Shown here: positions 20,099 through 58,272 of the stretch, piece after piece | Position numbering within the stretch: the stretch's first letter is position 1 | How the letters are laid out: every line of letters starts with the position of its first letter | Origin: Botryllus schlosseri | Lineage: Eukaryota | NCBI GenBank assembly: GCA_051294905.1 | Contig: CM119371.1 | Coordinates: 11,534,001-11,598,000, forward strand | DNA: 64,000 bases | Direction: 5' to 3' | Notes under the pieces: generated by a model | Seen by the model: the letters and a program-made list of their open reading frames with translations, nothing else | Database searches by the model: none | What the model was told of the DNA's origin: nothing | Translations under genes and position numbers: made by a program

Positions 20099-20432
20099 CA
20101 AAACATGATAACCCATTCTATGCACGAGTCGAATATCTTGAAGTTGCAGTGGAATTCTATCCAGCGAACGCAAAGTCACTCTATCTACGGCTTTCGCCTC
20201 AGCGATCCTGGCTGCTTTAACCCAGTTAAGCGCATTAATTTGTCCATTCTAAACATAGACAAATTGAAAGTAACACATATATCATGTCCCATAAAGATTA
20301 ATTTATTATTACTTCCGATAGATCAGGCGACACAACGCAACTTCCGACGATAAATGTTATATTTCGAAATGTTTCTTGCCATAACGCGATGTCCAATGAA
20401 TCACAAGGAGCCTTCAGATATAGTTCTCGGAT
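20099..20432 (-). CDS. NLR repeat cassette 10 (A 20313-20432, B 20099-20248)
   Basis: A=IRELYLKAPCDSLDIALWQETFRNITFIVGSCVVSPDLSE; B=NGQINALNWVKAARIAEAKAVDRVTLRSLDRIPLQLQDIRLVHRMGYHVL. 64-bp intron. Confidence 0.82.
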
Positions 20433-21689
20433 CTGAAAGAAATCATGACAATTATATGTATAGCTTTTTTAGAACAAGTGTTGTCCGAAGCATGTTTCGT
20501 TAATAATGTAACTGAGTGTAGCCTATGCATTGTAATCTCTGACGTTCTGCGTTCGGAATCTCAATGTAGGTATCAGAGTAACATGTAAGGATATTTATTT
20601 ACTTGGCACGTCAATACATGCTTACAAAATTTACATCACTTGTAAGTCTCGTGAGAACATGATACAAATCGACACCAGAAGATCATAACAATTCAAATAC
20701 TTCGGCAAGGATAATATAAAACGATATTTGTAGATTGTTTATGTTTATATATAACGAAGCAAATACAGAGCATATATGTGACCCCTCTGTAATTGTGTAT
20801 GAAGCTTGTCACATATAATAATGGAATTGGTCACTAATGTGAAGTGTATGAGGCAATAATTAACGAGATTCTTGAAGTTGCAGTATGTTGTTGACGAAGC
20901 TACATTGACCGGTATTTACAGAATTTGTCATGCTTATATTTATATAGGCTATTCGGATATTCGAATATGAATTAATATTTGACTTGGGTCATGATTAGTA
21001 GCCTACTTTAATACTACTTATAACGTATGTGTAGTATCCCCAATTCGAAGCGAAGCTCCGATATCTCTACAACCGTTCTGAAATTATAAAATACGCAATA
21101 TTTGTGACATATGTACATTGCACATCCTTGAATTCCGATTCATGCACTGACAAATGGTTCAGATCGGGACACTCACTTGTTATCCAAATAATGTCACTAC
21201 TTGTCATACTAGTGGTGAAGAATAAAATATATTAATATAAAATTAAAGCTCCCTCATCCTTGCTATGCCTTGGCCATTTATTAGTATCGATATACGCTGG
21301 GGGAAAGCATGAGTCCGTTTTCGTTCCAAAGATCCTTCACTTGGATCAACGGACAATATCAAGGCCAAGGGCCTGGAAATCCAATATTTCGATGTAGGCC
21401 ACATACGGCCGCGTGTTTAAGACCACTGATCTAGGCGGCGCCGGAAAGGCAACTGCGTTGACGACCTCTACTTTTTCGAAGAATCAAAAGTTACATACCA
21501 ATACTTTTCGAATAGTTTCCCCGTGTATTCAATAACGTCTGCATACCCGCTAAATATGTCACTGTCGTAGTTCAAGATCCTCGTCAAAGGGAAACATCTA
21601 TTCACCCCCATATAATAGCAACTTATCTAAGATATCTGTAGACTACTCAGTACCTATCATCATATGGAATACCACGACATATCCGTGAA

Positions 21690-22345
21690 TTGCCGTATAA
21701 TCATTTCTAAAAAAGGCTACTCTTCCTACCAGGAAAAATACGCAAGATTTATAGAAATGAGCTTATCGGCGTTGGCCATTACAGCGCCACGACGCACCAA
21801 GACATATACAGTTTTAGGCCATGATGTAACACGCGACTCAACGAAGTGTGCCGGAACGATCGGCAGCGAGAAACCTTGGCCGAAAAGGACTGCCCTGGGG
21901 ACCGAAAACTTCGTTATATATACGAAATACATATAGGTTTATTTGTCCATAGGCACCTAAATGACTGACGCCGAATGTTCCTGTCTTGGTAATCTGAACC
22001 TCACAAGACAAATACCATCCCGCAGAGAAAAATTTGATGCCAGTGAAGAAATACCAATTTGAAATCGTGTGATCTTTTAGTTTAGTACGTTCCGGCGATT
22101 CCATATTTTTTGATATAGCAGACAGGAGGTCACGAAATAACATCATGTAACGAAGTCATACCAACGAGTCCGTCCGTCAGAAGATTTTTAATTATTATTT
22201 ACGGGCTCTACAATTTCAAAGACACCTCACTCAGCTCTACCGCTGGGTATAGAGAGGACAAGAAATTGACAGCAATATATATGCAATTCCCGATCTTATT
22301 GACCGATTTTCATCATGAATTATCAAAAGTTTTCGCGCTTGGCGC
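21690..22345. repeat. Unclassified dispersed repeat; inverted copy at about 31010-31650
   Basis: For example GACAGGAGGTCACGAAATAACATCATGTA versus its reverse complement at about 31220-31247. Confidence 0.75.
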
Positions 22346-23456
22346 TGTTCATCTGAACAGTCCAACTGTAATTTCGTGGCAAAAGCGAACAACGTGATTG
22401 GGGGGGAGATAGTCGGTTTATCACCCTATGGGAGCCCAAGACTCAAGTTTTTGGGGCGTTTGGGCCTGACGAAGTGCTGTTTCGTTCCTGCCAACGGGTA
22501 TACACCCGAAGATGTTCAATTATTATTGGGGGGTCCTACCTTTTCAAGCACACCTTACTCAGCTCTACCGGTAAATCGGATTACGGGAGCAGAGAGAGGA
22601 TAAAAATTGATAGCAATATACAAGCAATACCGATCATATTGACCAATTCAGTCATGAATTATATAAATTTCTCGCGCTTTGCACGATTAAGCAAGCAAAG
22701 CTGACTCACTAAACGGACACTCAATGTGTAAACAGCGTCATATTGACCGATTCAGTCATGAATTATACAAATTTCTCGCGCTTTGCGCGAATATGCAAGC
22801 AAAGCAAGCTCACTAAACGGACCCCCAATGAAAAAACAGCGTATACCAAATGTAAACAGCGTACAGTCTGAGGGGGGTCTGGGAAGGAGGGTCCCCCAGA
22901 AGTTCGGTGTTACCACCCTATGGGGGCCCAAGACCAACGTTTGGGGGGCTGACGAAGTGCTGTTACGGCCCTGTTAGTAATAACATGACTATTCACGATT
23001 TCGGTGCGAAAAGTATAAGCGGATATAAGAGTAAATAGATTAGTCCCGAGTTCACCTGCATTGAGCATGGGTAGATTAACATGGGTATTTGGCCTTCAGT
23101 CAGTTCATTACGACTATGGAGTATGCACTGGCATGCGACCGTAGCCAACATAAGAAATCGAAATGCGGGCGTAAATTGCAAAAAGGTTGGCCACATCTGA
23201 TGAACGATCTATCTTGACCTGATCCGTCGAGGCTTGAGAGATATCTTTAATCGAATTAAATTTGTTTTACAGAAGCAGATAATCTGTTCTTACAGCAGCA
23301 AGTAGCATCCAGCGTATACAACACAGGCAAATTAACAGCAAGCACTAGCGAGCAAACAAACGCATTTATACACCACGTCTTAACCTAACAATCAATCACA
23401 CAATCATTGACCTAATCAAATGAGAGAAACAGAAATACTAAATGAGAGTTCACAGG

Positions 23457-24974
23457 TCATAAGTAATTAAAGCTTCGCAACACTCCTTCTCTTATGACAT
23501 GCGTTATCTCTCGTTCAGGAATACGAGAAATTCCGATTTGCTCCCTCAAATTGCAGAAAGACTGTCGACGTAGCGGCTTTGTAAATATGTCGGCAAGCTG
23601 CTTTTCAGTCGGAACGTATTCGATGTCAATCTTGTTCGCATCGAGCTCGTCTCGGATATATCCAAATTTCACGGCTATATGTTTCGTTGCTTGGTGATTA
23701 ACCGGGTTTCGGCTCATCGCGATCGCGCTTTGGTTGTCTTCAAAGATGGTGATCGGCACTTTGACGCTTTTTCCCATCTCTTCAAATAATTGACGAAGCC
23801 ATGCGGTCTCACGAGCGGCGAGATTGAGTGCGATAAACTCTGCTTCGGCTGTGGCCTGCGCCGTTACTGATTGTTTCTTCGATCTCCAACTAATTGGAGC
23901 ATTTCCCATCAAAATGATGTACCCCGAGGTTGATTTCCTGTCATCACGGTCACCACCGAAATCGGCATCTGCAAAAGCTGTAATAGTGTTAAAACCACTC
24001 TTATAAGTTATACCGTAATCAACAGTTCCTCGAATGTAACGCAATAAACGTTTAATCATTTGCCAATGATATACGGTCAGATCACTGTTGTATTGTGCTA
24101 GTTTAGCCACTGCGAACGCAATGTCGGGTCGAGTATACACCGCCAGATAAAGTAGACTCCCAACAGCAGCTTGATATGTCGACGAATCGAACCTTCTGTC
24201 TGTCGGTTTTGCTTTCTCCAGCACCGCTCCCGAATCCATTGGAGTGGACACAGGCTTACACTCGGACATTCCGAATCGTCCCAGCACACTTTTTGCATAA
24301 CAGTCTTGTCCGATCCAAATACAATCATCTGTCTGCTTGACACGCATACCAAGAAAATGGTGTAACATACCCATATCTTTGACATTGAACATCTTTTGCA
24401 AAGTAGACTTCGTCTTCGCAATTACTTTCTTCGTTTTTCCCGCTAAGAGTATATCGTCAACGTAGACTGCTAATTGTACGTCTCCATCGTCGTAAACGCC
24501 ACTGTAAATACAAGGATCAGATTTCGTTTGTTTAAAGCCCACCTTAATCAATTCCTCGTGTAGAAATTGATTCCAGCATCGCGGTGATTGCTTCAAACCA
24601 TATATGGACTTTCTCAAGAGACAAACCTTATCCGCTTGTTCTTTCTGTACAAAGCCTTCGGGCTGTTTCATATAGATGATCTCGTCCAATCTACCATGTA
24701 GAGAAGCGGTTTTGACGTCCATCTGATGAATTTCCATATTTTCTTCGACTGCCAATGCAACAAACGCTCGAAATGAACTTGCATGAAAGACAGGCGAAAA
24801 GGTTTGTTCGTAGTCTTTTCCGTATCTCTGGGTATTTCCAAGTGCTACAAGTCTTGCTTTGGCACGTGTCGCGTTTCCATTTTCGTCGTATTTATACTTG
24901 AGAACCCATTTATTCCCCAAAATCTTCGCATCGGGTGGAGGATTAACGAGATCCCATACTTTTAAATATTTCAT
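23457..24974 (-). CDS. pol: Copia reverse transcriptase / RNase H
   Basis: KARLVA, QMDVKTA, IYGLKQSPR, YVDD, ADADFGG, EDNQSA, KHI, QLADIFTK. Confidence 0.93.
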   Translation of the reverse strand: MKYLKVWDLVNPPPDAKILGNKWVLKYKYDENGNATRAKARLVALGNTQRYGKDYEQTFSPVFHASSFRAFVALAVEENMEIHQMDVKTASLHGRLDEIIYMKQPEGFVQKEQADKVCLLRKSIYGLKQSPRCWNQFLHEELIKVGFKQTKSDPCIYSGVYDDGDVQLAVYVDDILLAGKTKKVIAKTKSTLQKMFNVKDMGMLHHFLGMRVKQTDDCIWIGQDCYAKSVLGRFGMSECKPVSTPMDSGAVLEKAKPTDRRFDSSTYQAAVGSLLYLAVYTRPDIAFAVAKLAQYNSDLTVYHWQMIKRLLRYIRGTVDYGITYKSGFNTITAFADADFGGDRDDRKSTSGYIILMGNAPISWRSKKQSVTAQATAEAEFIALNLAARETAWLRQLFEEMGKSVKVPITIFEDNQSAIAMSRNPVNHQATKHIAVKFGYIRDELDANKIDIEYVPTEKQLADIFTKPLRRQSFCNLREQIGISRIPEREITHVIREGVLRSFNYL

Positions 24975-25090
24975 CGATGTGATTTCTTAATTTGCAGCTT
25001 CTTTCCACATATCAGAGTGCCCTGACTGGAAGGCTTCTGTCAAGTTTTTCGGTTCATTCAACTGATGAACTGATGCGGGTATCGCATAAG

Positions 25091-25774
25091 TCAGCACTTC
25101 TGGTCTTCGGTTTGCTCGAAATTCTCATTGTAAGCAAGTCTTGGTGGAGGATTTCCTGCATTCCGTCGCGATGATCGACGCACTCCTTCCACTTGTTCAT
25201 TCGTCGGCATTTCTACCAATCGGTTATCCGCTGATTGCTGTTCGTCACTGTTTAATGAAGGATAGATGTATGACGATGTAGGACACTCAGGCTGAGCTTC
25301 AGTCGATTCTCCTTCCTGGCCAAATCGGGATTCATCAAATTTCACGTGTCGCCGAATCAGAACTTCTTTCCTGTCTTCGGACCACAGACGGCAACCTTTG
25401 GATAATAAATCATAACCGATTAAATTGCACACTTCAGCTTTCGGATCAAGCTTTTTCTTCCTTTCACTTTTCTCTATGAAGGCATAGGCTTTACATCCAA
25501 ATATTCTCAAGTGTCTTACATTCGGCTTAGTCCCATGATAAGCTTCAAATGGAGTTTTGTTGTTGAGAGCAACGGTTGGACTTCTGTTCTTCAGATAAGC
25601 GGCTGTCATTATTGCTTCCGCCCACAAGAAACCAGGTAATTTTGCTCCATGAAGCATCGCAGAAGCTCTCTCACAGAGAACTCGGTTCAAGCGTTCCGCA
25701 ACTCCATTTTGCGAAGGACATGACCGTACAGACTGTGTGGATGACAGGATGTCAGGATGAAACTCCTTCTGCAC
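25091..25774 (-). pseudogene. Copia integrase C-terminal part (HHCC and first catalytic residues deleted)
   Basis: QNGVAERLNR, WAEA, YLKNRSP, FGCKAY and KLDPKA are present; the WH-RLGH zinc motif is absent. Confidence 0.85.
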
Positions 25775-26650
25775 AGCGCATGATTTGAGAGTCTTTTCGA
25801 TCTAGCTCTACATCATCGGTATCAGATTCTTCAGTGTCTTTACCAGCTGCACCAGTACGAAAAGAATTGATATCACGATTCAATTCGTCATGATCATCAT
25901 TGGTTTTCAACGGTATCTTCATTTCTTCTTTGTTACAAGGTCGATAATCTAACATGTAGAGACCATTTTTCAGTGATCCAGCTGCAACAATATGACCCTC
26001 GTATCGATCCAAAATTCGAAGCTTCTTCGAGTTGAAAGTAACTTCATACTGATGCCTGGCAACAGCAGCTCGAATCGAGAATAACGTTGTCGATAGGTCC
26101 GGCACATAAAGCGCATTCTGCAAATCTGCAATGCCATATTCTGCGCCATCTCGGAAGATAATTATTCGAAGAGTTCCGATCCCTTCAGAGTAAATCAGGT
26201 TTCCATCGCCTAATTCAATTTCTTCGTGGCAATGTTTCAGGTCGATAAATAATTCTTTCCTGCAACTCATGTGACTAGTTGCACCACTATCACATATTAC
26301 AAATTGTCGATTTCGAGACAAAAATGCTGACGTATGAAGCAAGTAATGTCTTTTGACTCCAGAGATTGATTCAACACGTGGCATGTAATTCTTCGATCCA
26401 AGATTCTTGGAACGCACGACTTCAGATGAATAAAACATCGCATGTTTCGCTGATTTCTTAGTACGATATGCTTGTCTGCGACTATTGCCGTTTTCGTCGT
26501 CGACATAGTTAGCACTTTGACGTTGTCTACTTTCTCGGCGTTTCCTGAATTCACTTCCTTTTCCACGTTCACAAGACACGCGTTTTTCCTCACGTTCTTC
26601 ATTATTTTCAGGACGGTTCCAACAATCCGACATTTTATGACCATACTTTC
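25752..26650 (-). pseudogene. Copia gag end and protease
   Basis: HKMSDCW (second half of the zinc knuckle), DSGATSHM, ALYVPDL. Confidence 0.85.
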
Positions 26651-27802
26651 GAGTGTCTTTATTTTGTACATACAAGCTAATGAAAAGCTAATTAAGCTAA
26701 TTAAGCTAATGAAAAGCTAATTAAGCTAATGAAAAGCTAATGAAGCTAATGGAAAGCTAATTAAGCTAATGAAAAGCTAATGAAAAGCTAATTAAGCTAA
26801 TGAAAAGCTAATGGAGTTATTGGAAAGCTAATTAAGCTAATGAAGAAGTAAGCTAATGAAAAGCAAGCTAATGAAAAGTTAATGAAGCTAATGAAAAGCT
26901 AATTAAGCTAATGAAAAAGAAAGCTAATGAAAAGCAAGCTAATGAAAAGCGACGGCACCTCTTTCGTCTCGATCGGACCACGGGGAGGGAAGTTATGGTC
27001 CGAAAACCAAAGTTCGGACTTAAATTTTCTTCGATTTCGTCCCCATGTTAAAGGATACGGAAGTTGGACTTATGCCGTTGTTTCTAAAAACAATTTCAAT
27101 TTTTTTTTCTATTCCTTTTTTTCGGGTATCGTTCGACGCAGCTCACGGCGTAGAACGCGACGACACACTCGGCGTGGCTCTAGGAGGTCGCAGAAAGATT
27201 TTAGATTTTAGATTTTTATCCTCGTTCTGTTATCAGGAGCTTGAATCGACTATCCGCTTAGCTCTACGACGCACAGGAGCCGAGATACGACGATTCGTGT
27301 TATAGCTCGGATCCTGTGAGGCCCAGCCCCTAGCCCGACTCCTCGTTGGAAGCGCCGTCGCGAGACGAATCCGCAGAAAAAATTATCCGGATTGGGTTAT
27401 CCGGAGCCGAGATATGTCCGGTCAAAGGGAAAAAAGCGACTTTCGATCGGCTCTGGAGGCCACACCGTTTGTCCGATCCAGATAATTTCTTCACAGGGCG
27501 TCGACTTCATTAGCTTACTTTTCATTAGCTTACTTTTTCATTAGCTTAATTAGCTTTTCATTAGCTTCATTAGCTTACTTTTTCATTAGCTTAATTAGCT
27601 TTTCATTAGCTTCATTAGCTTTTCATTAGCTTACTTTTTCATTAGCCTAATTATCTTTTCATTAGCTTCATTAGCTTTTCATTATCTTGCTTTTCATTAG
27701 CTTACTTTTTCATTAGCTTTCCATTAGCTTAATTAGCTTTTCATTAGCTTCAGTAGCTTTTCATTAGCTTTTCATTAGCTTGCATGTACAAAATAAAGGC
27801 AG
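26651..27802. mobile_element. Foldback-type DNA element with internally repetitive long TIRs
   Basis: Arms of about 300 bp built from AAGCTAATGAA/AAGCTAATT repeats in inverted orientation; unique outer TIR CTTTATTTTGTACAT. Duplication CCATACTTTC at 26641-26650 and 27803-27812; non-coding middle. Confidence 0.9.
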
Positions 27803-28468
27803 CCATACTTTCCGCAATGATCACAATTTCCATTAAATTTCGGTTTTCCACTCTTTCGTCTTGCATTGTTTCTTGCGTGGTACGCCTGTACAGACTCTTT
27901 CGGTCGAATCGATAGATCAGTTTGTACGCGCAGTAACAAATCATTTAACGAAAATCTCGGCTTGTTCTGTATCTCATTCAAAATATAGCTTCGAGTTACA
28001 TCAAGACTAGGAGGCAAGTGCTTGATCACTCCGAAAACTTGGTCGGTCTCGGCAACGGCACGACCCAAGCTTGCCATCCTTTGGAATAGCATTTGACATT
28101 CCTCAATTTTCTCAAGGACGTTCTTTTCCGTGAATGTCGGCAACATATCGATCTCCATTTTCAATGTGAGATAAAGCGTAGCATTCTGTGGTTCAAACTT
28201 CGCTTTCAAGGCATTCCAAATTTCCTTAGGATCATCGTGGTGATCTTCAGGTATAGTTGGTAACACGGATCCACTCAAGTTGCAAAGTAGAATTCCCGCG
28301 GCTTTCATTTTCATTTTTCTAGAGGCAGCTCCTTCTGCGGTGTCATTGCCCATAACACTATTCCACAACTCATTCGCCATGAGGAGGCCTTTCACTTGGA
28401 CTTTCCACGACGTTCAATTACTGTTTTTACCGCATTTCAGTTTATCTAGGCTTGAAATTGCTGACATT
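27803..28468 (-). pseudogene. gag: Copia gag N-terminal part
   Basis: LW.../KEIWNALKAKF/LPPS motifs, ending in CDHCGKYG at the foldback insertion. Confidence 0.85.
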
Positions 28469-29342
28469 GTGGCTGTAGACACGAGATTAACAATGGCGCA
28501 TAACCTTTGATGAACGATCTATCTTGACCTGATCCGTCGAGGCTTGAGAGATATCTTCAATCGAATTAATTTTTTTTTACAGAAGCAGATAATCTGTTCT
28601 TACAGCAGCAAGTAGCATCCAGCGTAGACAACATAGGAAAATTAACAGCAAGCACTAGCGAACACACAAACGCATTTATACACCACGTCTTAACCTAACA
28701 ATCAATCAAACAATCATTGACCTAATCAAAGGAGAGAAACAGAAATACTAAATGAGAGTTCACAGGTCATAAGTAATTAAAGCTTCGCAACAACATCTGC
28801 TTTAGTTGCTGAAGAGTGTTGTCAGGTATCGTGCGAACATCATAGTTGAAAATAGAATGAAAGTGATGATCATGTTTGTTTTTGTTGTATTTGTATTTCT
28901 TTAATAAAATATTATTTGTTTTGTGGTAACCATGCCCGTTTCCCATGTTAGAGAGAACAGCGTTGTACGTACGTAGTGTTATCAAAACGTGACTGTTAAA
29001 CTGAATTGCATATTTTCATTTAGATATTGAAGTTATGCGGACCGCCCCGCGGACTCAACGAATTTTGGAAAGTGGCTTGCGTCTCGTTTTGAGTTGGTGG
29101 GCCCTACCCTATACCCTTGACCAGACATTGCTTCATTGTTTTGCTATTATCGACTTTCTGTATTTCTTTAGAATACCAACCAATCGTTACAGCCAGATTG
29201 TATTGTATAGAGACGATGTTTCTTTTTTGTATTCAACAATTTTTGGCGCTTATCGCCGATAAAGTCATTTGCGCCCGATCATGAATATTGTCCTCTGTTT
29301 GGTGCTTTTTTGCGGACGACTTCGAGTCACAGTCTCATTCAC

Positions 29343-29347
<5 letters not shown>

Positions 29348-29383: not shown

Positions 29384-29386
<3 letters not shown>

Positions 29387-30010: not shown

Positions 30011-30346
30011 CTTCTCGCGATATTTTATTGCATTGAGCAATCGGATATCTTCAATCCGGAGGGCGATCTTATCAACCGAAGACAAAGTTACTTCCTCAAT
30101 GACTTCCACGTCAGCAATTACTGCTGCTTCGATCCATTTTGCAACATCCATTTTTCCGTGCTGAAAATGTGAAACAGAAGATCACATAGGCCTACTGTTA
30201 ATTTTATAAATTTAATTTAGCTTCACCTTTGATATTTTCGGCGCAACAATGCAACGCGAAACGGTAAATGATATATTTTGAAATGTTCGTCGCCACAAAT
30301 CGGCGTCGAACGAATCGAAATTAACTTCAATCCAAAAATTTAACAC
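30011..30346 (-). CDS. NLR repeat cassette 9 (A 30227-30346, B 30011-30160)
   Basis: A=VLNFWIEVNFDSFDADLWRRTFQNISFTVSRCIVAPKISK; B=HGKMDVAKWIEAAVIADVEVIEEVTLSSVDKIALRIEDIRLLNAIKYREK. Exon B ends at a GC donor (AAG|GCGAGT). Confidence 0.82.
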
Positions 30347-30485: not shown

Positions 30486-30816
30486 CTTCTCGCGATATTC
30501 TATTGCATTCAGCAACCGGATATCTTCAATCTGGAAAACGACCCAATCAACTGAAGACATAGTTACTTCCTTGATGGCTGCTACATCTGCGATCTTTGCT
30601 GCTTCGATCCATTTAGCTACGTTTATTTGTCCATGCTAACGTGCAATACAGACGATATAATAATGTTACATTACATGGAATTTGATTCAACATTACCTCT
30701 GGTATTTCAGGTGCAACAATGCAACGCGCAGCTTCGAATGTCAAGTTTCGAAAGGTTTCTCGCCATAAATCCGCGTCGTACGAATCGAAGCAAACTTTCA
30801 TCCAAAGGTTTGATAT
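30486..30816 (-). CDS. NLR repeat cassette 8 (A 30697-30816, B 30486-30635)
   Basis: A=ISNLWMKVCFDSYDADLWRETFRNLTFEAARCIVAPEIPE; B=HGQINVAKWIEAAKIADVAAIKEVTMSSVDWVVFQIEDIRLLNAIEYREK. 61-bp intron. Confidence 0.83.
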
Positions 30817-32622: not shown

Positions 32623-32966
32623 CTTGAGAAATTCGATCGAGGAATTCGATCCAACCAATTTCTGAACATCTTCAATCTGAAGTGGAGTTACCTCATCGGA
32701 CTCTAACCAGACTTCGTTGACATAGGAGCCCGCGATCTCTGCTACAGATAGCCATGTTGTAACATCGATTTCCTCAACCTGAGGTGCGGAATAAGTATTA
32801 ATGCCTCACATACGATATTACCTCAAACTTATATTCATGGCACTTTTTCTGTTCGTGGTACTCGTACGAAGCACTGCATAACGGTAAAGCACATCCGATC
32901 AAACACCTGTGACCACGTCCTCTCATATGACGATTCCTTTTCTGGTTTTATCCACAATTTATTGAT
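32623..32966 (-). CDS. NLR repeat cassette 7 (A 32844-32966, B 32623-32778)
   Basis: A=INKLWIKPEKESSYERTWSQVFDRMCFTVMQCFVRVPRTEK; B=VEEIDVTTWLSVAEIAGSYVNEVWLESDEVTPLQIEDVQKLVGSNSSIEFLK. 65-bp intron with a weak GTGCCA donor. Confidence 0.8.
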
Positions 32967-35848: not shown

Positions 35849-36183
35849 CTTGCCCGAGAAATTCGAATCAATCAATCTCTGAAGATCTTCAATCCGAAGG
35901 GGAGTCATTTCGTCTGACTCTAAAAGAACTTTGCCTACGTTGTATCGGCCCGCGGTCTCAGCAGCAGAGACCCAAGTTGTCACATCGATTTCTTCCATCT
36001 GAAATTCGGAAGAAGCGATGCCTCATACACGGTATTACCGCTAATTTATATTCAAGTCACATTTTCTACTCGAGGTGCTCGCACATAGCAATGATCCACG
36101 GCAAAGCGCATCCGTTCCAATGCGCGTTCCCATTTTCTTTCACGTACCGATTCCCTATCTGGTGTTATCCATAATTTGTTGAT
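35849..36183 (-). CDS. NLR repeat cassette 6 (A 36061-36183, B 35849-35998)
   Basis: A=INKLWITPDRESVRERKWERALERMRFAVDHCYVRAPRVEN; B=MEEIDVTTWVSAAETAGRYNVGKVLLESDEMTPLRIEDLQRLIDSNFSGK. 62-bp intron. Confidence 0.83.
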
Positions 36184-41690: not shown

Positions 41691-43105
41691 TCGATAACCA
41701 TTAATGCATTTATTAACCCTGGACAGGTACGGTCAAATAGCCGAATCCATATTCTGCACTACAGATATTGATGAATTTGGTGACACCTGGATATCATATA
41801 AAATTACGGGAAAAGGATGTTCCCCATCCTAGCAATGATTCGGGCAAGAGCAAGCAAAGATGGACAAACATCTAAACAAGGCAGATTTCATCAAGAGTAG
41901 ATACGGCATCATTCGGGTCGTAATTGGCCATTTTTGAGCCAACGAAAGCGAGTGTACTGCTGCATTTTTGAAGGACATCATCCAAATACTTTTCCCAAGT
42001 TGAAGATGACAAAAATTGATATCAAGAACTGTTATTGCCTAGGATATCACGAATAAACTGTTTTTGTTGTCCACATAGATATTTTTTCATCGATCTAGTT
42101 CTGTACAGTTGCATATTAATGTTACTTTTTTCAAATGCATGCACCATTATTTCCGTCATATACACATGAATTAGGGATTTGAGGATTAAATCATGTATTC
42201 GTAAATGTGCCATCTGTGAAGTGTATGTATCTTGTTTCCTCATTTCTTTACATAACATGATGGAATCCTGAAAATTCAATTATGTATAGTAAGGCATCGA
42301 GATTTTCTGGAATGATCATGGATAGGTGACTTTTTTCAGAGGTGGGTGATGTCAGGGATATCTAGAAACTAGTTTCTAGATATCCCTGGGTGATGTATGC
42401 AGCGTTGCTACTGAAGTAGTTGAAGTATTGCTACAATGGTTTACTCAGGTTCAAATAGAAGTAGCGAAAATATAAATCTGTAGAGTACTTTTAAAAAGTT
42501 CTAAAATTAGATTTGGTTGTTCGCTCGAAGTCAGTTGGAAATAGTCACTTTTGAAATTGCAGGGTGAAGCTTAGTGATTACCGCAAAAGGACCATTGAAT
42601 ATATGGGTGCTATTTTCAAAAACTTTCAAAACTCAGGGATATCTGGATATCCCTGCAAAAACCAAGTTGTGATGTTTATGTTTGGTGAGTAGTATGAACA
42701 CATAATCACCCGAGGAAGTAGGCAAACCTACTCGAGTACTCAAATTAACTAGAATTACTTCTCTGTGTGCAACTTTGCATTTATTCATAGGTTAAATACC
42801 GTAATAAATGATCAAACTGAAATACAAAAGAACAGTTGTATCGACTAGCCTAATCACTATTGCTCCAACAACTCACGAGACGTGAGTGTCAATGCATACA
42901 TGCACGCACGTCGCACAATCACAACAACAAGAAGACGAGATCGCTCATGCGTTTAGGGAAACTACTAGAGAGAGAGGTAGTAGTAAGAGATAATCACACA
43001 TCCCCCCCAACTCCTAACGAAATCAACGAGCATTGAGTGAGGAGTTCAAAATACAGCGAGTAGAGAACGTCCAACCAAATACTCTAATGGCGATTGAATC
43101 GGGAA

Positions 43106-45455
43106 TCAACATAACATTTGTGCCCCAATAACGTAGTCCTTGTGCCATACTGGCGGAGTAACATTTCTGCCCGAGCGCTGGCGTCTATCATTAGACGGTG
43201 CGGCAACACTAGTGTCGTCGATCGGTACTTCAACTGGTAGATGATCTTCGGCACTCGATTCGGCGGATCTCAGCACGCCAGGGTCTACCTCATGTGACTG
43301 TCCACTTCGAGCGGGTGGCGAAACGACGTGAGGTGACGTAGCTGTGCCGGGAGACGAGACCGTTGGCTGAAAATATGTGTGCTTTTGGTTCGTGAAGTAC
43401 GGCTCAATCTTGCATAGAAATTTCCTGTTACGCAGCATCAATCTGCCGGAACCGTCCACTTTCACGAGGTACTGGTCATGGTCCCGGCACTGAACCACAG
43501 TGCCGGTTCTGTCCCAGCGAAGGGGATAACGACCGTTTTGGTTTTGAATGCGACAGACATCACCTTCAAGAAGCGGTGATAATGGCTTAGTGTTCAACGA
43601 CAGAGATTCCAGCTGCTTCGCAAATCTGGTACGTAACGTGTGCTCGCGACTCTGCCAGAGGTTCCTCCATAATGGCCTGATGTTGCGCTGGGTGAAAACT
43701 GGGACCCATGCTTTGATCGGCAACGCATCTTTCAAAGTCCTGCCAAATACTATTTCTGCAGGGGAGAGTCCATTCGCGGGGTCGGGGCAATTGCGAAAGT
43801 GTAGCAATGCCCGAGTAATTGCGTCGGTCCGGATGCTGCCATCCTGCGAAATGTTGCCGAGGAGTCGTTTCATCGATTTCACCGCGGCCTCCGCGCGGCC
43901 ATTTGATCTGGAGTGGTAGGCCGACGACAGCCTGTGACGCACCCCCCATTTTCGAAAAAATTCCCGAGTGCTGTGCGCAGCAAATTCGGGTCCCCCATCA
44001 CTGCTAAGTTCTTCGGCCACTCCAAACGTGCCAAAGTAACTTCGTAATGCATCTTGGAGTCCGAGGGCTCCAGACGATTGCCCACCGTGCTTCACATGGA
44101 ATATCTTTGGCCAGTTGCTGAAGCGGTCAACAACGACTAAATAGTGGTGGCCTGCGGCGGTGCAATAATCAGCGGCAACAGCTTGGAAAGGGTAGGTCGG
44201 TATGAATGGCTCGGCCGGAGGTATGTATGCTTGACTCGGTGCCATTTTACTGCAGTTGTCACAACGTGCTCGTGTACGTGCTATACACTCACTCATCCCA
44301 GGCCAAAATACTGTGACCTGCGCCCTCTGTGACATGGCAGCAGTCCCTTGGGGTGCCGAGTGTAAGATTTCACAGATAACCCCTCGCAGCGGCGGGGGAA
44401 TGACAATCCGGTCATTATACATGACAACATCGTCTACGATCGAAAGGTTGTCGCGGTACCGCCAATATGATTGTAGTTGAAAAGGCAGTTTGTCCGATTT
44501 GTCTGGGAATCCTGAGATGATGTGAGTTTTCAACTCACTGAGGACAGGATCGTATGCAGTACTGCGCTTTACATCGTCCCAGGAGACAACTTCAATGGCA
44601 TTCAATGATGCGCGGGAGGCGGCCGCGATGCTGAGTTCAATCAGATTGGTGTCCTCATGGGCAGACACGATGCTGTCGCAATGGTCCAATGGCATGTCAT
44701 CCACTGGAGTCGAGGGAGCAGGGTGCCTGGAGAATGCATCAGATGCAGGAATGAGTTTACCAGGAACATGGACGACACGGAAGCGCCATGACAATGTGCG
44801 CTGCTTCAGACGAAAAATCCTTGTGTTAGTAATTTCATCAAGGGAGCGGTCCCCAAAGATTTTTACCAAAGGTTTGTGGTCAGTGCAGATGATGAGATCG
44901 TCACATCCGAGGGTGAAGAACTTCGTATCTTCCAATGCCCATGCGATTCCAAGCGCCTCGCCCTCTATAGAACAATAACGTTGTTCGGCGGATCGGAGGA
45001 ACTTTGAGCCAGCGAGAGTGATTTTCTACCCATGGTCGCAACAGTCAGGGGTCAAGGAAACGCATTTGCAGTACTTCTGTCGCAGCCAGTAGCCAATGCC
45101 AGACCTTGACCAGTCCGGGGTCAGGCACGTTCTTCTAGTGGGGTCAAAGATCCGTACTCCATTTTTGATAGCGTTGATGAGCGCGAGCTTGGAGTTCGCA
45201 AATGCATCATCAAGTTCGGAAGTCCAGCAAAATGGAGTTTTCGTGCTTAGTAACGGTTTGAATGGTGCCATAATGGTAGAAAGCTGGCCATAATGGGATG
45301 CCTGGTTGACCAGCCCAAACCATGCACGTATATCTGCTATTTTTGTTGGCCGTGGGAAGCACTGTATTGCTTCTAAGTATTTGGGCAGAGGCCGAACATC
45401 CTCGCCAGTAATTTCGAAGCCGGCGAACTCGATGTGTCTGCGGCAGAACTGGATA
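43106..45455 (-). pseudogene. pol: Gypsy RNase H / integrase (frameshifted)
   Basis: PDWSRSGIG, TDHKPL, VAADY, SDGGPEF, SNGRAE. Confidence 0.9.
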
Positions 45456-45463
45456 GTCTAGAT

Positions 45464-46938
45464 CAGTGGTTCTCAACCTTTTTGGCTTCGCGGACCCCTT
45501 TTGACCGTCACAGACCCTCGCGGACCCCCTCCAGTTTTAGTTCAATTTTAGCTCTGTTATGATGCAACCTTCATCTGTTTTGTGCAAAAATGTATTGTAG
45601 GCTTGTGATAAACAGCAAAATATTGATTTTTCTTGAAAATAACATCATATACTATTTATGTATAAATTGGTAGACTTTGAATATTTCAAAGCTAATTTTG
45701 CTGCTGTATTTCTTGAAGTAAGTGGCGTGTCTTGAAAATCCACGTCTTCCTTTTGATATGAACGAGGAGTGCCGAATACCAATTCCGCAAAGATAGATGG
45801 AGGCTAATGCAATATTAACGCGTAAAGCTTCCGACTATACTTTTGGTGTGATCGCAACATTTATGGCACCAAAATGAAGAAACATATATTTTATGAACAT
45901 ATCACGCCCAGCATCTAGCGCAGGGACTGGCAACATAGGACGCACCGCGGGTCGGATTGGGCCCACGACGGCATTTTCATAGGCCCGCAGAGAGTTTCTA
46001 CCGTCAAAGTGAAATCCTAATCTAAAAGTATATAGACAAATTTTATGCGCCAAAGAATGGATCCAAGTTTACAACCTGAGAATGACTGTCATGAAACGAC
46101 TTGTTCTGTTCGAGCAAACATTTTCGACCATGAACTATTGAACATTAACACGACAAGGCTGCATACCAATATAACTGGTGATATGAATTTCAGGGTTGGA
46201 GCGTAATGCTTTGACACCAACGAAACACTCCTTGTTCATAAAAAAAAGCCTTGTCGATAGGGCATCCGCAATAAGAATGCGCCAAATCTGATAGCCGAGC
46301 TTTAAGAGTAGGTATATCATTGTCCGATTTATGACGAGTGTCAGCCGTAAATATTCGGGTTCATTTCAATATCAATATACTATTTAATTGTATATTAAAT
46401 TTCTGTACCTCCAAGAAGCTATTCAAATAGTGGTTATGTATATCACAGCAGGATCAAATGGATTTCGTGGCGAGGTTTCAATCCCTGCATTGGGAAAAAT
46501 TAGGGAAATACTTCGTAAATTTTTATTTCAAACGACTGTTCACTAATTTGATGAGACTGACAACTTCAAGTCGAGAAGGTTTCGCAGACATTACGAAGTC
46601 ACCCTGATTGACGTTACTATCTCCATATTTTTATTTTTACCACAAACCCCAACAAAACGTCTCTAAACAGCAATATGTTTGTATCAGCAGGTTATTGGAA
46701 AATTGGCAATGAAAATGAATTTCCACACTACGATAGCTCATGTCAGACTATTATTATTATGATATGAGTCATGAGGTTTTAGAAGTTGTGGTTCGAAACT
46801 GCCTCATGCTTTCTCAAATTAAAAAATGAAATAAAAAATAGGTTATCAACCATTTTAAAAATTTAGAGGTCTCGCGGACCCCCTGAAATTGCTTCGCGGA
46901 CCCCTAGGGGTCCGCGGACCCCCGGTTGAGAACCGCTG
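45464..46938. mobile_element. hAT/Charlie-type non-autonomous element inserted in the gypsy RT
   Basis: TIR CAGTGGTTCTCAACC / GGTTGAGAACCGCTG; perfect 8-bp TSD GTCTAGAT. Confidence 0.93.
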
Positions 46939-46946
46939 GTCTAGAT

Positions 46947-47200
46947 AGTCAATCATTCTCCACCAGTGCGTGGCAAGGTCATCGTCCCAGAGGACCGTGT
47001 CGTCCACGCACTTCGTTTTGCGTGGTGTGTCGGCAATGATGCTGTCGTAGCGGTAAGCGTACCCGTCGCCACTGGCCAGGTATCCCTGCGGGGCCACTCT
47101 ATACCGATATCTCCCGAACTCAGTGATGAATGTCAGAAGGTGTCTATCCTCTTCACGCACGGGCACGGAATGGTAACCATTCCAGGCATCTGTGACAGAC
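46947..47200 (-). pseudogene. Gypsy RT fragment
   Basis: DAWNGYHS, TFITEFGRYRY, PQG, CVDD. Confidence 0.88.
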
Positions 47201-48648
47201 CTTGGAGTATTTGGTTATATTAAGTTTGATCATGTGCAACTTTGCATTTATTCATAGGTTAAATACCGTAATAAATGATCAAGCTGAAATACAAAAGAAC
47301 AGTTGCATCGACTAGCCTAATCCCTATTGCTCCAACAACTCACAAGACGTGAGTGTCAATGCATACATGCACGCACGTCGCACAATCACAACAACAAGAA
47401 GACGAGATCGCTCATGCGTTTAGGGAAACTACTAGAGAGAGAGATAGTAGTAAGAGATAATCACACACTCTGAAAACTACGTACGTCTGCTTGATATTTA
47501 ATGATGTTATTGATGTAGAAATATGATGGAAAAGCGACACCTCAAGTTGTAATGAAGGTTGTGTCACTTGCAAAAATGGTTGAACGTCCGCGACCGTGTG
47601 AACATAAGCCTCGTTGATTGTCACAACGCTGAATCACGGGGATTGCGTATAATTGCGAGTCGTCAATGTGTGAATTGGATTTGCGATACGCGCATAACGC
47701 GCGAGATTGATCTTGTGAACTATGTGTACGACTGTACGAAGTACGTGTACGTGAATCAATAACGTTTATATGGCAGTGATCCGCTATCATAATCTGAAAA
47801 AAAATCCCGGACGCGAGAAAGAAATGCGCTTTAACACGTTAACGCTAGTCGCCACTGATAAATATACCCAATGAATTAAATATCATCGCTAGTTCCTCAA
47901 GGAAGTATTGCAGAGGAAGGCTTTGTTTACAGCACAACAGTGTATGCGATGTAGCGTGACCAGGAACACGCTGAAACGGAGAGCTCACGGTAATTTCTAA
48001 TCATTGTATATATATCATTGGGTGTGTCGACGGTATGGCTGGTCGGTTACTTGGTGTTCGAGTATATTTAGTGAGCTGAATAAACCTCCATACTGGACAA
48101 GGGCCTCTACACGAGCCTTTAAAAACTTTTCAAGAGATCAAGGTTATTTTATAAAGGTGGAAATAAGAGCATCCTCTGAAACATTTTGAAACCTGGTGTA
48201 TAATACTCCCCATCTGCCACTTACGTCAATTCAATGATTTCTACTGCCCATTCACACATAAAACAAGGGTACCTTGTAGTTCTAGACAGTTGAACCAGTG
48301 GCATATTCATGAGTTCAAAATCAATGGAACCTTTACACGTTTAAGTAGTTTGAGTATACTATATTCCGAACTTGAATTCCAAAGTTTCATATTCTCGTAA
48401 GACCCCTTGATCCCCTGTTTTAAAATGAAAACTTTCAATCGCCTGGTGTCACATTCTATTGTTTCATGCCCAACCTACAACGTGGTACAACGTAGTACAA
48501 CCCTTCAGACAATGATTATGGCATAAATATTTTGCAGCTAAATACGATTTTGTAACATTTTTCAAGTTTATACTGCGTTTATAACTTCCAAAATGTGTTG
48601 CGCAACCTTATTATTTGAAAGACCAACATTTAGATAGTGTTCCTTCAC

Positions 48649-48974
48649 CTTGTCAGAGAAGCTCAGTTCATTCAATCTGTCGAATTCTTCCATTCTGAAG
48701 TAAATTGTTTCATCGAAATCCAAAGCGACTTGCTTTACTTTTATGACATGAGTGGTTTTCGCAGCCGCTACACATACTTTTATCGCTACCTGGAAAGCGG
48801 CAGAGGTAATGACTCACCTTTGTTTATATCTAAAACTCATATTCACGTCACCTTTTTCACTCCCGCCACTTTGATGTTTAAATGCTCCACAGAGAAGCAT
48901 ATCATTGAAAACACCTGCCCCCAGACGCTTTCATCAAATGATTCGTCGTTCAGACTTATACATAACTCCGTAAT
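48649..48974 (-). CDS. NLR repeat cassette 5 (A 48852-48974, B 48649-48789)
   Basis: A=ITELCISLNDESFDESVWGQVFSMICFSVEHLNIKVAGVKK; B=VAIKVCVAAAKTTHVIKVKQVALDFDETIYFRMEEFDRLNELSFSDK (in-frame 9-bp deletion relative to cassettes 3-4). 62-bp intron. Confidence 0.8.
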
Positions 48975-52736: not shown

Positions 52737-53075
52737 CTTGCCCGAAAAATTCAATTCATTCAGTCTCTGCAAATCTTCAATTCCCAAGGGAGTTCGACCA
52801 TCAAAATCCAAAGAAACGTGATTTATCGCTTTGACATTCGCAGCATCTGCTGCAGCTACAAATGTTTTAACGTCGATTTCCACTACCTGAAAAGCGTCGA
52901 AGATGGTAATGTCGCACATATTGTATTATATCAGATTTCATATGCGGGTCACCTTTTTTAATTGGTGCACATGTAAGTAGCAATGCTCCACAGGGAAGCA
53001 TATATTTTGAAATACCAGCCTCCAGACATTTTCATCAAATGATTCCCTCTTTAAAGTTATCCATAATTCTCTAAT
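52737..53075 (-). CDS. NLR repeat cassette 4 (A 52953-53075, B 52737-52886)
   Basis: A=IRELWITLKRESFDENVWRLVFQNICFPVEHCYLHVHQLKK; B=VVEIDVKTFVAAADAANVKAINHVSLDFDGRTPLGIEDLQRLNELNFSGK. 66-bp intron. Confidence 0.85.
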
Positions 53076-54815: not shown

Positions 54816-55098
54816 GGTGGCGAGATAGCGCAGTGGTATAATCCGCGGCTGCAACACCGATGGGTGCGGGTTCGAGTCCGACCGAGGTCGACTTCCGAAT
54901 TCCGACACCTAAGTGTTGGAGGTTTACCTAGGCTCCTCCTCGCCACCTCATCCGCGTCAGCGGTGTCTTACAAAAGTCTAGAGGTGGGCCGTGCTATAAG
55001 TCGGCAGTTACGGAAAATAAGAAGAATATCGGCCTGGTGTAAATGACCATAGTAGTCGACAAACACCATGAATACCCAAAACAAACAAACAAACAAAA
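54816..55098 (+). mobile_element. tRNA-derived SINE
   Basis: A box TAGCGCAGTGG, B box GGTTCGAGTCC, (CAAA)n tail, 14-bp TSD ACCCTCTGTGCAGC. Confidence 0.93.
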
Positions 55099-55718
55099 AC
55101 CCTCTGTGCAGCAATGTAAGTGTTCAAATACATCGTAGTTATCACCACACAATATACCACGCTTTCTGGTGATTCTGCCGACTGGTCAATCAGTCCATTG
55201 ATGGGTAAGATATATATTGTCAAGTAACAATTTAATTTTCCGGTACAGCCGCTCGAACAGACCGACGCCTGGATCGACCATAAATTGTCTTGACATAACA
55301 GATTTTGCAGTTTTTACTGCAAATTTCGCTGTTTTATTCATCATTCGTCTCGACACTATACACAGCAGTTGCCGTCCAATCCTCAACCGCCCCCATTTTC
55401 ACTCTCAGCACCCCCTACCCCCCCCCCCCCCCCCCCCATAATTCATGGACAGCCCCCTCCAATCGCCCATTTCGTGTCCAGCGCCCTGTTAACGTTCGCC
55501 AACGCCCCCAGGGGGTCGCTGGCGCCCACTTTGGGAATCACTGATCTAAACGGATATGACATTCGAAACAATCTCAATGTTCCAGAAAAATTTTAAATGG
55601 TATTGTGTGATATGTTCGATTCGTTGGCTGCCATCGTAAGCAAACCTAGGCGGATGACACACTTGCACACAGGATAGACGTCAATATCTCCCCTACTATG
55701 TTACATGATGCGTCCTGA

Positions 55719-56102
55719 CAGTGGTGGCTTTTGGGGTGGGCGAGGTGGGCGGGCGCCCGGGCCCCCTATTTGGAATATGTGCTTTTTTCAAGGATAATAA
55801 CGAATGAACATGGAAATACATGTACCAAGCAAGAATATGATTCCATACAGATGTGTCAATCATCATCAAATCTCTGCATTTGTTAGAAAAGTCCCGTATC
55901 CCGATAATCATCACGTCTCTGCATGCGGTAGTGATTGTAGTCTATCCATGCAATAAAAGACATCGCCGAATCCATCACCTGGGCAAACCTTGCCGGGATG
56001 AAAGAAAGTTAGAGTAGAAAGAAAGTTAGGATTGGACACTTAAAGCGCCCCCCCCCCCTTCGGTAAGTCTAGCCCAGCCCCCTGTTCGTAGGCCCACCAC
56101 TG
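55719..56102. mobile_element. hAT MITE (CAGTGGTGG ends)
   Basis: Perfect TSD CGTCCTGA; a related end occurs at about 51720-51770. Confidence 0.87.
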
Positions 56103-56360
56103 CGTCCTGATAGTTTTAGACTAGTTGCTGTATATAGTCCAAGATCGAGATATAGGTAGACTAGACATATATTGGAATGATAATGTGGGAATGCTTCAAA
56201 TATTTTTTGAGTTCAATACCATTCCAACAATCGTTAGAGCATAACTATTTTCCAGTGGAAGACGATTGTGGAAGATCATCAAATTTTGTTCTTAGCTATG
56301 TGTCGGAAATGTTGCATAAACATAGTCACGTAAACACACGCTTGGGAAGCATATTTTCAC

Positions 56361-56692
56361 CTTGCAACAAAAATTCAATTCATTTAATCTCTGGAAATCT
56401 TCAATTCGAAGTGGGGTGCTAACATCGAAATCCAACGAAACTTGATTTACCGCATTGACATGTGCGGTATATGCGGCAGCTACAAGTGTTTTTACGTCGA
56501 TTTCGGTGACCTGAAAATAAGTAGTTATAGCTGGCATATGGTAACATCTCAGATTTATATGCAAGTTACTTTTTGTTCTCGTTGCACATGTACGTAGCAA
56601 TGCTCTACATAGAAGCGTATCTTTGCAAACACCTTCCTCCAGACACTTTCATCAAATGATTCTTCGTTCAGAGGTATCCATAATTCCCTAAT
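56361..56692 (-). CDS. NLR repeat cassette 3 (A 56570-56692, B 56361-56510)
   Basis: A=IRELWIPLNEESFDESVWRKVFAKIRFYVEHCYVHVQREQK; B=VTEIDVKTLVAAAYTAHVNAVNQVSLDFDVSTPLRIEDFQRLNELNFCCK. 59-bp intron. Confidence 0.85.
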
Positions 56693-57377
56693 CTGAACGA
56701 GTTGTAAATCGTGGATAATAGCTGAATATACCAAAGGTGTCTTTACAGTGTTTACAGTCATGAAATTTTAGTGCTAATCGTCATTGTATACCTTGAAGAC
56801 TTGAACAGGCTATCCTAAAAATATTTTGGTTACTTCAGTAATTGTTGAAGTCATCAGTAACCTACTTCCCTGGGATTCAGCTGTGTTCAAATGCTGTTTT
56901 ACGATGTATGTCCTTGAAGAAATATCCCATAATACATCAATATAGACGAGTGCTGCTTGTAATAAACGAATCAAAAAGCATACTTTCGCCCTCCAATAAA
57001 CCATACATCCTGCTACGATAGGTATAAAGACATTACGAATTCATTATCGAACGTCACCAGCTATGTGCTTCATCAATAAAATGCTATGTGTCAATGGCAG
57101 CGTATCAATGGATTTCACATTTATTTCTGTGCAAACGTGCGACTGTTTACATGCTACTAGACAAAAGGAGCTGCATTTCAATGCATCATTTGTATAGCAA
57201 TGTGATGAACATGAGACATATACCAGAAACAATGCATCAAAATATTCTAGGGTCCTTATATACTGACAATTTACTATTTTGTTATAAATCTATTTCAATG
57301 GATTCAATGGGTGATATGATCGTTAAGTCAGAAGAATATCTGAAGAAAATGATTTGGTCGCAAAATAAATCAAATAC

Positions 57378-57718
57378 CGTCCCACAAAAATTCAGTCCTA
57401 TGATTCTTCCGATTTCTCCTATTTCACTGATTCGAAATGACACAGAATGGTCCGAATATACGGATAATTCTTCCACGTTAGCGATTTTAACAGTTTCTGC
57501 TACGTCGGCCCATGATCCGAGATGAATTATTTTCGTCTGAACCAAGGAAGAGTTAAAGTTTAGAATACCTTACTTCGAATTCACAGCCACGCTACCTTTT
57601 CAACTTCGGGAAGTTTAACATAACAATGATGAACCTCGATCGAAATCCGTTGAAATATACATTCCCAAAGATTTTTGTCGAATGATACCTCGTCGGAGCT
57701 TATCCACATTTCTTCGAT
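57378..57718 (-). CDS. NLR repeat cassette 2 (A 57596-57718, B 57378-57536)
   Basis: A=IEEMWISSDEVSFDKNLWECIFQRISIEVHHCYVKLPEVEK; B=TKIIHLGSWADVAETVKIANVEELSVYSDHSVSFRISEIGEIGRIIGLNFCGT. 59-bp intron. Confidence 0.8.
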
Positions 57719-57938
57719 CTAACATAATATGAAATCATTAGTTACCACATTGATGGGACAAGATGTGGAAAGCTAATGCGATGTCGTTGCTGCTCTTCGA
57801 TTAAAGATTGTAACAAAGAGCCAATCTTGGGTGAGAATATTTGATACTGACTTGCGAATATTACAAGCTGTTGGGATATCTGTAGAGTATGCATAAATAT
57901 TTATTTGTTCAATTTTACAAGTAATCAGTAGTACATAC

Positions 57939-58272
57939 TTTTGTCAAACTCAAATCGAACTTGGCGAGTTCTTCAACTTCTTTAATGTCCAATCGAAGAC
58001 ATTTCAAGTTAGCGATTTCGATTCGAGAAACATTCTCTTCCGTAGCTTTTAATAAATCGAAAACAACATCTTCGAATTTCTAAACAATATAAGTGTACAC
58101 GTGTACAGTGATGAAAAACTAATGACCCATTCGAAATCAGAATATTGTTCTTTACCCGTTCGATGCGAGGTAAATCCATGCGCAAAGTAGTAACTTCCAT
58201 GTTTCTAAAAATCTCTTGCCAATATTGCACGTTTGACCAGCTCGTATTTTGTCTCATATCAAATTTGTCGAT
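57939..58272 (-). CDS. NLR C-terminal repeat cassette 1 (exon A 58156-58272, exon B 57939-58079), divergent
   Basis: A=IDKFDMRQNTSWSNVQYWQEIFRNMEVTTLRMDLPRIER; B=KFEDVVFDLLKATEENVSRIEIANLKCLRLDIKEVEELAKFDLSLTK. AG/GT boundaries, phase 0, 76-bp intron. Confidence 0.7.

What the first reader, a model, noticed from the sequence alone, without database searches (positions are those of the whole stretch)
20099..58272. The ~91-aa unit looks like a triplet of Asn-less degenerate LRRs
Seen: each unit has three short hydrophobic strings with LxxLxL spacing (IRELWI, VEHCY(V/L), (V/I)NxVSL). Each is followed by an amphipathic segment (FDExVWxxVF, IDVxTWVxAA, LRIEDLQRL). The LxxLxLxxN asparagine is absent, and W, C and the IED motif are conserved instead. 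Inference: a beta-alpha solenoid with a 3-repeat superperiod that standard LRR profiles may miss.
Basis: inference. Interest (0 to 1): 0.75.

Follow-up and report, generated by a model that had tools for sequence, protein, structure and literature searches.

The report
Three-turn LRR-like repeat in ascidian NLR
A NACHT immune-receptor-type gene of a probably sea-squirt-like animal carries ten copies of a two-exon, roughly 91-residue unit that likely folds as three unusual leucine-rich-repeat turns, which standard repeat profiles miss, but the fold of the unit itself could not be modelled here.

Summary
The unit is real. Ten minus-strand units (86-94 aa) run from 58272 to 20099, each an exon pair (A 39-41 aa, B 47-53 aa, phase 0), behind a NACHT exon and an exon with one canonical LRR motif. 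Each has three hydrophobic-xx-hydrophobic-x-hydrophobic strings spaced about 28/33/30 residues; 31 of 20,000 column shuffles do as well. 'Asn absent' is overstated: position 9 is Asn in 4, Cys in 1 and Asp in 9 of 30 strings. No Pfam, PDB or Atlas match. Exon B aligns without gaps to residues 9-58 of a two-turn LRR unit of Styela clava NLRs (0 of 2,000 shuffles; hhalign probability only 2-9%); exon A has no reliable match. Units are under purifying selection (dS 0.62, dN 0.22), with no excess variation on the predicted concave face. The spliced unit could not be folded, so 'solenoid' is inference (about 0.8). Verdict: lineage-specific three-turn variant of the exon-modular NLR LRR tail. The scan noted exon-modular NLR tails elsewhere in this genome, but no look-alike of exon B.

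The parts
60746..62158 (-). NACHT exon (about 470 aa, phase 1-1; Walker A, Walker B and winged-helix motifs present)
   Evidence: Pfam NACHT E 7e-15, NOD2_WH E 0.009; 18 Styela clava NLR-type proteins at 29-34% identity; boundaries; a contig of run X5 joins its 3' end to the next exon
58683..58990 (-). Exon L (102 aa, phase 1-0): HD2-like region plus a canonical first LRR motif (LxxLxLxxCxI type)
   Evidence: tblastn hits from 17 of 18 Styela proteins, E 2e-9 to 5e-3; no Pfam hit; donor chosen at 58683 by likeness to Styela, an alternative donor lies at 58620
57939..58272 (-). Unit U0 (divergent): exon A 58272-58156, exon B 58079-57939
   Evidence: boundaries shared by paralogous ORF P0022
57378..57718 (-). 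Unit U1: A 57718-57596, B 57536-57378
56361..56692 (-). Unit U2: A 56692-56570, B 56510-56361
52737..53075 (-). Unit U3: A 53075-52953, B 52886-52737
   Evidence: one X1 contig stops exactly at the B3 donor with 7 unaligned letters (weak)
48649..48974 (-). Unit U4: A 48974-48852, B 48789-48649
35849..36183 (-). Unit U5: A 36183-36061, B 35998-35849
32623..32966 (-). Unit U6: A 32966-32844, B 32778-32623
30486..30816 (-). Unit U7: A 30816-30697, B 30635-30486
30011..30346 (-). Unit U8: A 30346-30227, B 30160-30011 (GC donor)
20099..20432 (-). Unit U9: A 20432-20313, B 20248-20099
9908..10075 (-). Candidate ordinary 168-nt, phase 0-0, two-turn exon (56 aa, strings 28 apart); link to this gene not shown
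   Evidence: sequence reading; no Pfam hit, no hit from Styela repeat profiles
9641..9826 (-). Candidate terminal exon (61 aa and stop); link to this gene not shown
   Evidence: no significant Pfam hit

Best explanation
The ten two-exon units follow a NACHT exon and likely form the C-terminal sensor and auto-inhibitory tail of one NLR-type protein, each unit predicted to fold as three beta-alpha turns (about 28, 33 and 30 residues) of a ribonuclease-inhibitor-like LRR solenoid. Shown: exon pairs, open phase-0 frames, string pattern, purifying selection, NACHT upstream and spliced to the first-LRR exon. Inferred: about 30 turns in one chain of roughly 1,600 aa plus an unseen N-terminus; positions 1, 4, 6 (including the string-2 Cys) point into the core; the Asn ladder is largely replaced, with Asp on turn 3 and conserved Ser/Asp/Glu at helix starts; the exposed position 5 shows an aromatic stripe (Trp on turn 1, Tyr/Phe/Ile on turn 2, small polar on turn 3) recurring every third turn. 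The unit probably arose from an older two-turn (58-aa) module by gain of one extra turn, then spread by copying the exon A - short intron - exon B block. By analogy with NLRP3/NOD2/NLRC4 (established knowledge), the tail would hold the NACHT inactive until a ligand or perturbation releases it to oligomerise; the ligand is unknown.
For: Context: NACHT, relatives are Styela NACHT-LRR proteins whose model matches NLRP9, NLRP3 and NOD2 (P0007 proxy, Foldseek E 7e-20 to 1e-17); exon L holds a canonical LRR motif just before U0; RNA-type contig joins NACHT to L. Pattern: evenly spaced triple in 31 of 20,000 shuffles; Asn/Cys still at position 9 in 5 of 10 first strings. Homology: exon B aligns gap-free over all 50 columns to residues 9-58 of the Styela 58-aa two-turn unit (0 of 2,000 column shuffles); these are the top 3 distinct windows of 14,490 in 14 Styela proteins, scores 17-18 against a non-LRR maximum of 2.7. 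A related Styela unit without Asn at position 9 of its first string (P0007 898-952) models as strand-helix-strand-helix inside the solenoid, pLDDT about 60-80. Coding: pooled dS 0.62, dN 0.22 over three close pairs; three exon-A relatives in unnamed contigs keep the same boundaries. Block copying: all 10 A-B introns are 59-76 nt and 60-74% alike in the four pairs compared, the 9 B-A introns are 139-12,465 nt.
Against: The unit itself was never folded. hhalign probabilities against Styela repeat profiles are only 0.1-9%; with the wider Styela set exon B was reached by 6 of 100 shuffles and exon A by 31 of 100. The three top windows for exon B are near-identical copies from one protein, so one independent hit, and one reversed window scores 11.8. 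The Styela target sets were chosen after looking at them. Exon A's best Styela match is out of the expected register and is beaten by a reversed window (13.6 against 11.1). Exon A and exon B show no mutual similarity, so the 'extra turn by duplication' step is untested. The LRR position-9 and position-11 consensus is not met, and turn 2 is longer than typical. No A-B or B-A splice junction was listed. One DNA contig (X3) carries a change at the A0 donor G (58155).
Confidence: 0.78

Rival explanations
1. Each 91-aa unit is a small independent alpha/beta domain or a non-LRR repeat recruited as the NLR sensor, and the LxxLxL likeness is convergent.
For: No Pfam LRR, PDB or Atlas hit; position-9 consensus met in only 5 of 30 strings; exon A has no reliable Styela match; units are 16-69% identical to each other but the three sub-repeats are not detectably alike.
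Against: Canonical LRR motif directly before U0, residual Asn/Cys at position 9 of string 1, 28-33 spacing, gap-free match of exon B to a Styela LRR unit. Pfam also barely sees Styela LRR tails: 1 of 4 proteins scanned passed an LRR cut-off among the rows shown.
Confidence: 0.12
2. It is an LRR-type solenoid but with another register or turn number, for example a fourth short strand at the start of exon B, or turn 2 looping out as an insertion on a two-turn module.
For: Five columns carry the hydrophobic motif, not three; turn 2 is 30-33 aa with a weakly amphipathic Ala-rich helix; exon A's best Styela alignment is shifted by five residues.
Against: The two extra motifs fall inside segments predicted helical; only columns 1, 29, 62 are evenly spaced.
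Confidence: 0.07
3. The units are not one continuous tail: they are alternatively used cassettes, belong to more than one transcript, or the locus is decaying.
For: No junction between units seen, near-zero exon depth in three RNA runs; introns up to 12.5 kb with LTR elements; a possible short terminal exon at 20044; donor change in the X3 allele; all exons are phase 0, so skipping keeps the frame.
Against: All 20 exons open with good splice sites, strict A-B order, no second NACHT ORF inside the array, purifying selection. Optional skipping of whole units would not change the fold reading.
Confidence: 0.12

Closest known systems
Styela clava NACHT-LRR models (P0001/P0002 'NACHT, LRR and PYD domains-containing protein 3-like', P0005 LOC120335173, P0007 LOC120326636, P0013 LOC144429750)
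   Same: NACHT 32-34% identical, HD2-like and first-LRR region alike, tail of tandem beta-alpha repeats; exon B matches the last 50 residues of their 58-aa two-turn unit; some of their units also lack Asn.
   Different: Their repeats are two-turn units of 51-58 aa, mostly keeping N and C at position 9; none of the 18 has the 91-aa unit (exon A and B profiles found nothing).
Vertebrate NLRP3/NLRP-type RI-like LRR domains with exon modularity (Hoss et al. 2019, PMC6642158; passages read)
   Same: Frame-preserving LRR exons behind a NACHT; turns of about 28-29 aa; repeated exon blocks.
   Different: There each 171-bp exon encodes two turns alternating 28 and 29 aa with the border at one place in the beta-sheet. 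Here the module is three turns over two exons (about 123 + 150 nt); neither exon alone is a whole number of turns, and the N/C consensus is mostly lost.
LRR proteins with an interrupted or moved Asn ladder: three-domain TLRs (PMC4877655, abstract) and FNIP/FGxxFN repeats (PMC9525666, passages)
   Same: LRR solenoids persist when only LxxLxL is kept and Asn at position 9 is lost or moved.
   Different: Other LRR classes; FNIP keeps an Asn ladder at position 12, whereas no invariant Asn is seen in any column here.

Membership tests
LRR (canonical conserved segment) | LxxLxL strand core | tested here: met
   positions 1, 4, 6 hydrophobic in 29, 30, 30 of 30 strings
LRR (canonical conserved segment) | N/C/T(/S) at position 9 (PMC9525666 passage; Ser recalled) | tested here: not met
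   N 4, C 1, S/T 0 of 30; D 9 of 30
LRR (canonical conserved segment) | hydrophobic residue at position 11 | tested here: not met
   1, 5 and 4 of 10 in strings 1-3; next conserved core residue falls at 13, 17 and 14
LRR (canonical conserved segment) | repeat length typically 20-30 aa | tested here: inconclusive
   modal 28/33/30, range 26-33
LRR (canonical conserved segment) | hit to a Pfam LRR family | tested here: not met
   0 of 20 single-exon peptides at E<=10; the joined unit was not scanned
LRR (canonical conserved segment) | curved parallel beta-alpha solenoid fold | not testable with these tools
   only single exons can be folded; exon B alone gave two helices and no fold match; proxy Styela model is a solenoid
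RI-like LRR class | strict alternation of 28/29-aa turns in two-turn modules (PMC6642158) | tested here: not met
   period is three turns
NLR (NACHT-LRR) | NACHT NTPase domain | tested here: met
   PF05729 E 7e-15, above cut-off
NLR (NACHT-LRR) | winged helix and HD2 after NACHT | tested here: inconclusive
   NOD2_WH E 0.009 below cut-off; exon L matches the HD2-bearing region of Styela NLRs by tblastn but has no Pfam hit
NLR (NACHT-LRR) | C-terminal LRR array in the same chain | tested here: inconclusive
   NACHT-to-L splice seen; L-to-unit and unit-to-unit splices not seen
NLR (NACHT-LRR) | N-terminal effector (death-fold) domain | tested here: inconclusive
   no tblastn hit upstream of 62200 from 18 Styela proteins; 5' exons not located

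The most novel reading that the evidence does not exclude
An ascidian NLR subfamily has evolved a distinct LRR class: a three-turn, largely Asn-free module with a Trp/Cys core and a fixed aromatic stripe every third turn, encoded by an inseparable exon pair. It would be invisible to all current LRR profiles, and many invertebrate 'NACHT-only' proteins could carry such hidden tails; its conserved rather than hypervariable concave face would point to a fixed repetitive ligand or a guard/scaffold role.
Probability: 0.3. Interest if true: 0.6.

Novelty: new variant of a known kind. Interest (0 to 1): 0.38.

Why it matters
NLR surveys count a protein as an NLR only when LRR profiles hit (definition in PMC8662601, passages read), so tails like this are dropped and repertoires of tunicates are under-counted. 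A three-turn module split over two exons also departs from the two-turns-per-exon rule described for vertebrate NLRs, and gives a concrete test case for how far an LRR solenoid can lose its Asn ladder. It is a structural variant of a known receptor design, not a new system.

Tried and rejected
No whole genome is held for this window, so copies elsewhere could not be counted. Word-based protein searches with exon B and exon A alignments among longer proteins found nothing at E<=1 (weak evidence). The 1.84-billion-protein HMM search with exon A gave 5 hits at E<=0.001: three are single-exon relatives in genomic contigs (P0019, P0021, P0022) and two (P0020, P0023) were judged chance matches to unrelated repeats; no spliced multi-unit protein was found. 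PDB sequence search: best E 0.089 for exon B, none for exon A. ESM Atlas: no usable hit for either exon. Foldseek with the exon-B model: no match, uninformative for a 50-residue piece. Complex prediction of exon A, exon B and the next exon A as separate chains: no answer, no evidence either way. RNA: no RNA holder listed; three raw RNA runs, 6-13% of each read, had near-zero exon depth and the joint table was filled by repeats; of four contig runs on 56330-59060 none listed a joint. By-eye alignment of exon A to Styela units and of exon A to exon B was not supported statistically. Diversifying selection on the concave face was rejected for this array (three pairs only). Styela repeat and terminal profiles did not pick out the window's exons. 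A candidate exon at 58557 has no phase-0 donor and was dropped. Six literature searches listed no paper on ascidian NLR repeat structure or a three-turn LRR module; subscription papers are not in the library and no supplements were read.

Full report
Setting. The window is intron-rich eukaryotic DNA with LTR elements; no genome is held. The minus strand carries a NACHT exon at 62158-60746 (PF05729 E 7e-15; boundaries). All 18 longer relatives found are Styela clava NLR-type models at 29-34% identity, so the organism is inferred to be another ascidian. The next exon, 58990-58683, matches the HD2-bearing region of 17 of these 18 proteins and contains a canonical LRR motif. A contig of run X5 aligns to 58949-58996 and its loose end equals the end of the NACHT exon, which shows this splice.

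The unit. Exon mapping gave ten units U0-U9 from 58272 to 20099, each exon A (39-41 aa) plus exon B (47-53 aa), all phase 0, total 86-94 aa. Profiles of A and B found no further copies in the six frames (next best E 0.016). A-B introns are 59-76 nt, B-A introns 139-12,465 nt. Units are 13-69% identical, closest as U2/U3/U4, U5/U6 and U7/U8 (only U5/U6 is a supported fork in the tree). Three exon-A relatives in unnamed genomic contigs have the same length and flanking acceptor and donor codons, and divergent high-depth contigs show paralogs in this species. Pooled over three close pairs dS is 0.62 and dN 0.22: these are maintained coding exons.

The triplet. Strings at columns 1, 29 and 62 have hydrophobic residues at positions 1, 4, 6 in 29, 30 and 30 of 30 cases, with modal spacing 28/33/30. 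An evenly spaced triple arises in 31 of 20,000 column shuffles (214 at the loosest threshold). Position 9 is Asn in 4 first strings, Cys in one, and Asp in 9 of 30 overall, so the Asn is mostly, not wholly, lost. Exon-A W18 is invariant, the string-2 Cys is in 8 of 10, IED in 6 of 10. Helical moment is strong in segment 1, moderate in 3, weak in 2; AlphaFold2 on exon B alone gives helices at 6-15 and 36-44 with no strand, as expected for a piece without neighbours.

Is it an LRR? Library searches are blank: Pfam (0 of 20 exons), PDB sequences, Atlas, longer proteins. Pfam is weak on Styela tails too. Styela NLRs hold two-turn units of 51-58 aa, some without Asn. Exon B aligns gap-free to residues 9-58 of the 58-aa type (0 of 2,000 column shuffles); those windows rank first among 14,490 (17-18 against 2.7 for non-LRR windows and 11.8 for the best reversed window). 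Against this: it is one independent hit, the target was chosen after inspection, hhalign probability is 2-9% (0.3% against the whole-protein profile), and exon A has no reliable match. As a proxy, a Styela relative (P0007) was folded: its Asn-poor unit 898-952 forms strand-helix-strand-helix within the tail and the model matches NLRP9, NLRP3 and NOD2 (whole-protein match, so NACHT contributes). The spliced unit could not be folded. The solenoid reading therefore rests on context, pattern and partial homology; I put it at about 0.8.

Mechanism. Most likely the ten units make about 30 beta-alpha turns behind NACHT-HD2, closed by an ordinary 168-nt two-turn exon and a terminal exon at 10075-9641 (link unproven). 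By analogy with NLRP3, NOD2 and NLRC4 (established knowledge) the tail would restrain the NACHT and sense a ligand or perturbation. Position 5 of the strings, which faces outward on the concave side in LRR structures (PMC9525666 passage), is Trp in 7 of 10 first strings and aromatic or aliphatic in 8 of 10 second strings, so an exposed hydrophobic stripe would recur every third turn. The concave positions are not more variable than the rest (14 of 44 against 74 of 200 codons differ; dN 0.19 against 0.24), unlike what earlier scan notes report for 168-nt exon arrays in this genome (not checked by me). Since neither exon is a whole number of turns, only A-B pairs can be copied or skipped without breaking the register, which fits the strict pairing; this is inference. 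Origin from a two-turn module by gain of one turn is plausible from the exon-B match but untested.

Comparison and novelty. Human NLRP3 has 171-bp exons with two turns of 28 and 29 aa (Hoss et al. 2019, PMC6642158, passages read). LRRs with broken or shifted Asn ladders are known (PMC4877655 abstract; PMC9525666 passages). The unit fails the position-9, position-11 and two-turn tests, so I do not file it in the canonical or RI-like class; it most likely works like one. Six searches (listings only, except the four papers named, with PMC8662601 read as passages) showed no description of a three-turn, two-exon LRR module. Earlier scan notes describe other exon-modular NLR tails in this genome, one with no canonical LRR, but a sequence look-up with exon B, a look-up near this place and a word look-up returned nothing. 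Verdict: new variant of a known kind, interest 0.38.

Noticed in passing
window 23198-28792: Copia-type LTR element in the U8-U9 intron (LTRs 96% alike, RVT_2 E 1e-70), itself interrupted by a ~1.15-kb insert flanked by inverted short-period satellites (26654-26946 and 27506-27801).
   Followed up: partly
window 42766-47467: Second LTR element in the U4-U5 intron (terminal repeats 98% alike; integrase and RNase H hits at 43106-45025).
   Followed up: partly
window 4260-9064: Gypsy-type LTR element (LTRs 96% alike; gag, protease, RT in several frames).
   Followed up: partly
window 58155: A DNA contig of run X3 has another base at the first position of the exon A0 donor, so that allele may not splice here, although a paralog supports the donor position.
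   Followed up: partly
window 57491-57523, 58228-58286, 58753-58994: Divergent, higher-depth contigs show several paralogs sharing exons L, A0 and B1.
   Followed up: no
window 54817-55092 and 59506-59790: Two 94% alike inverted copies of a ~285-bp high-copy, abundantly transcribed repeat that looks tRNA-derived by eye; not scanned with a tRNA tool.
   Followed up: no
window 20044-20021: A possible acceptor 55 nt after exon B9 would add seven residues and a stop, repeating the GYH motif at the end of B9: a possible alternative terminal exon.
   Followed up: partly
window 30010: Exon B8 ends at a GC donor in an otherwise consensus context.
   Followed up: no
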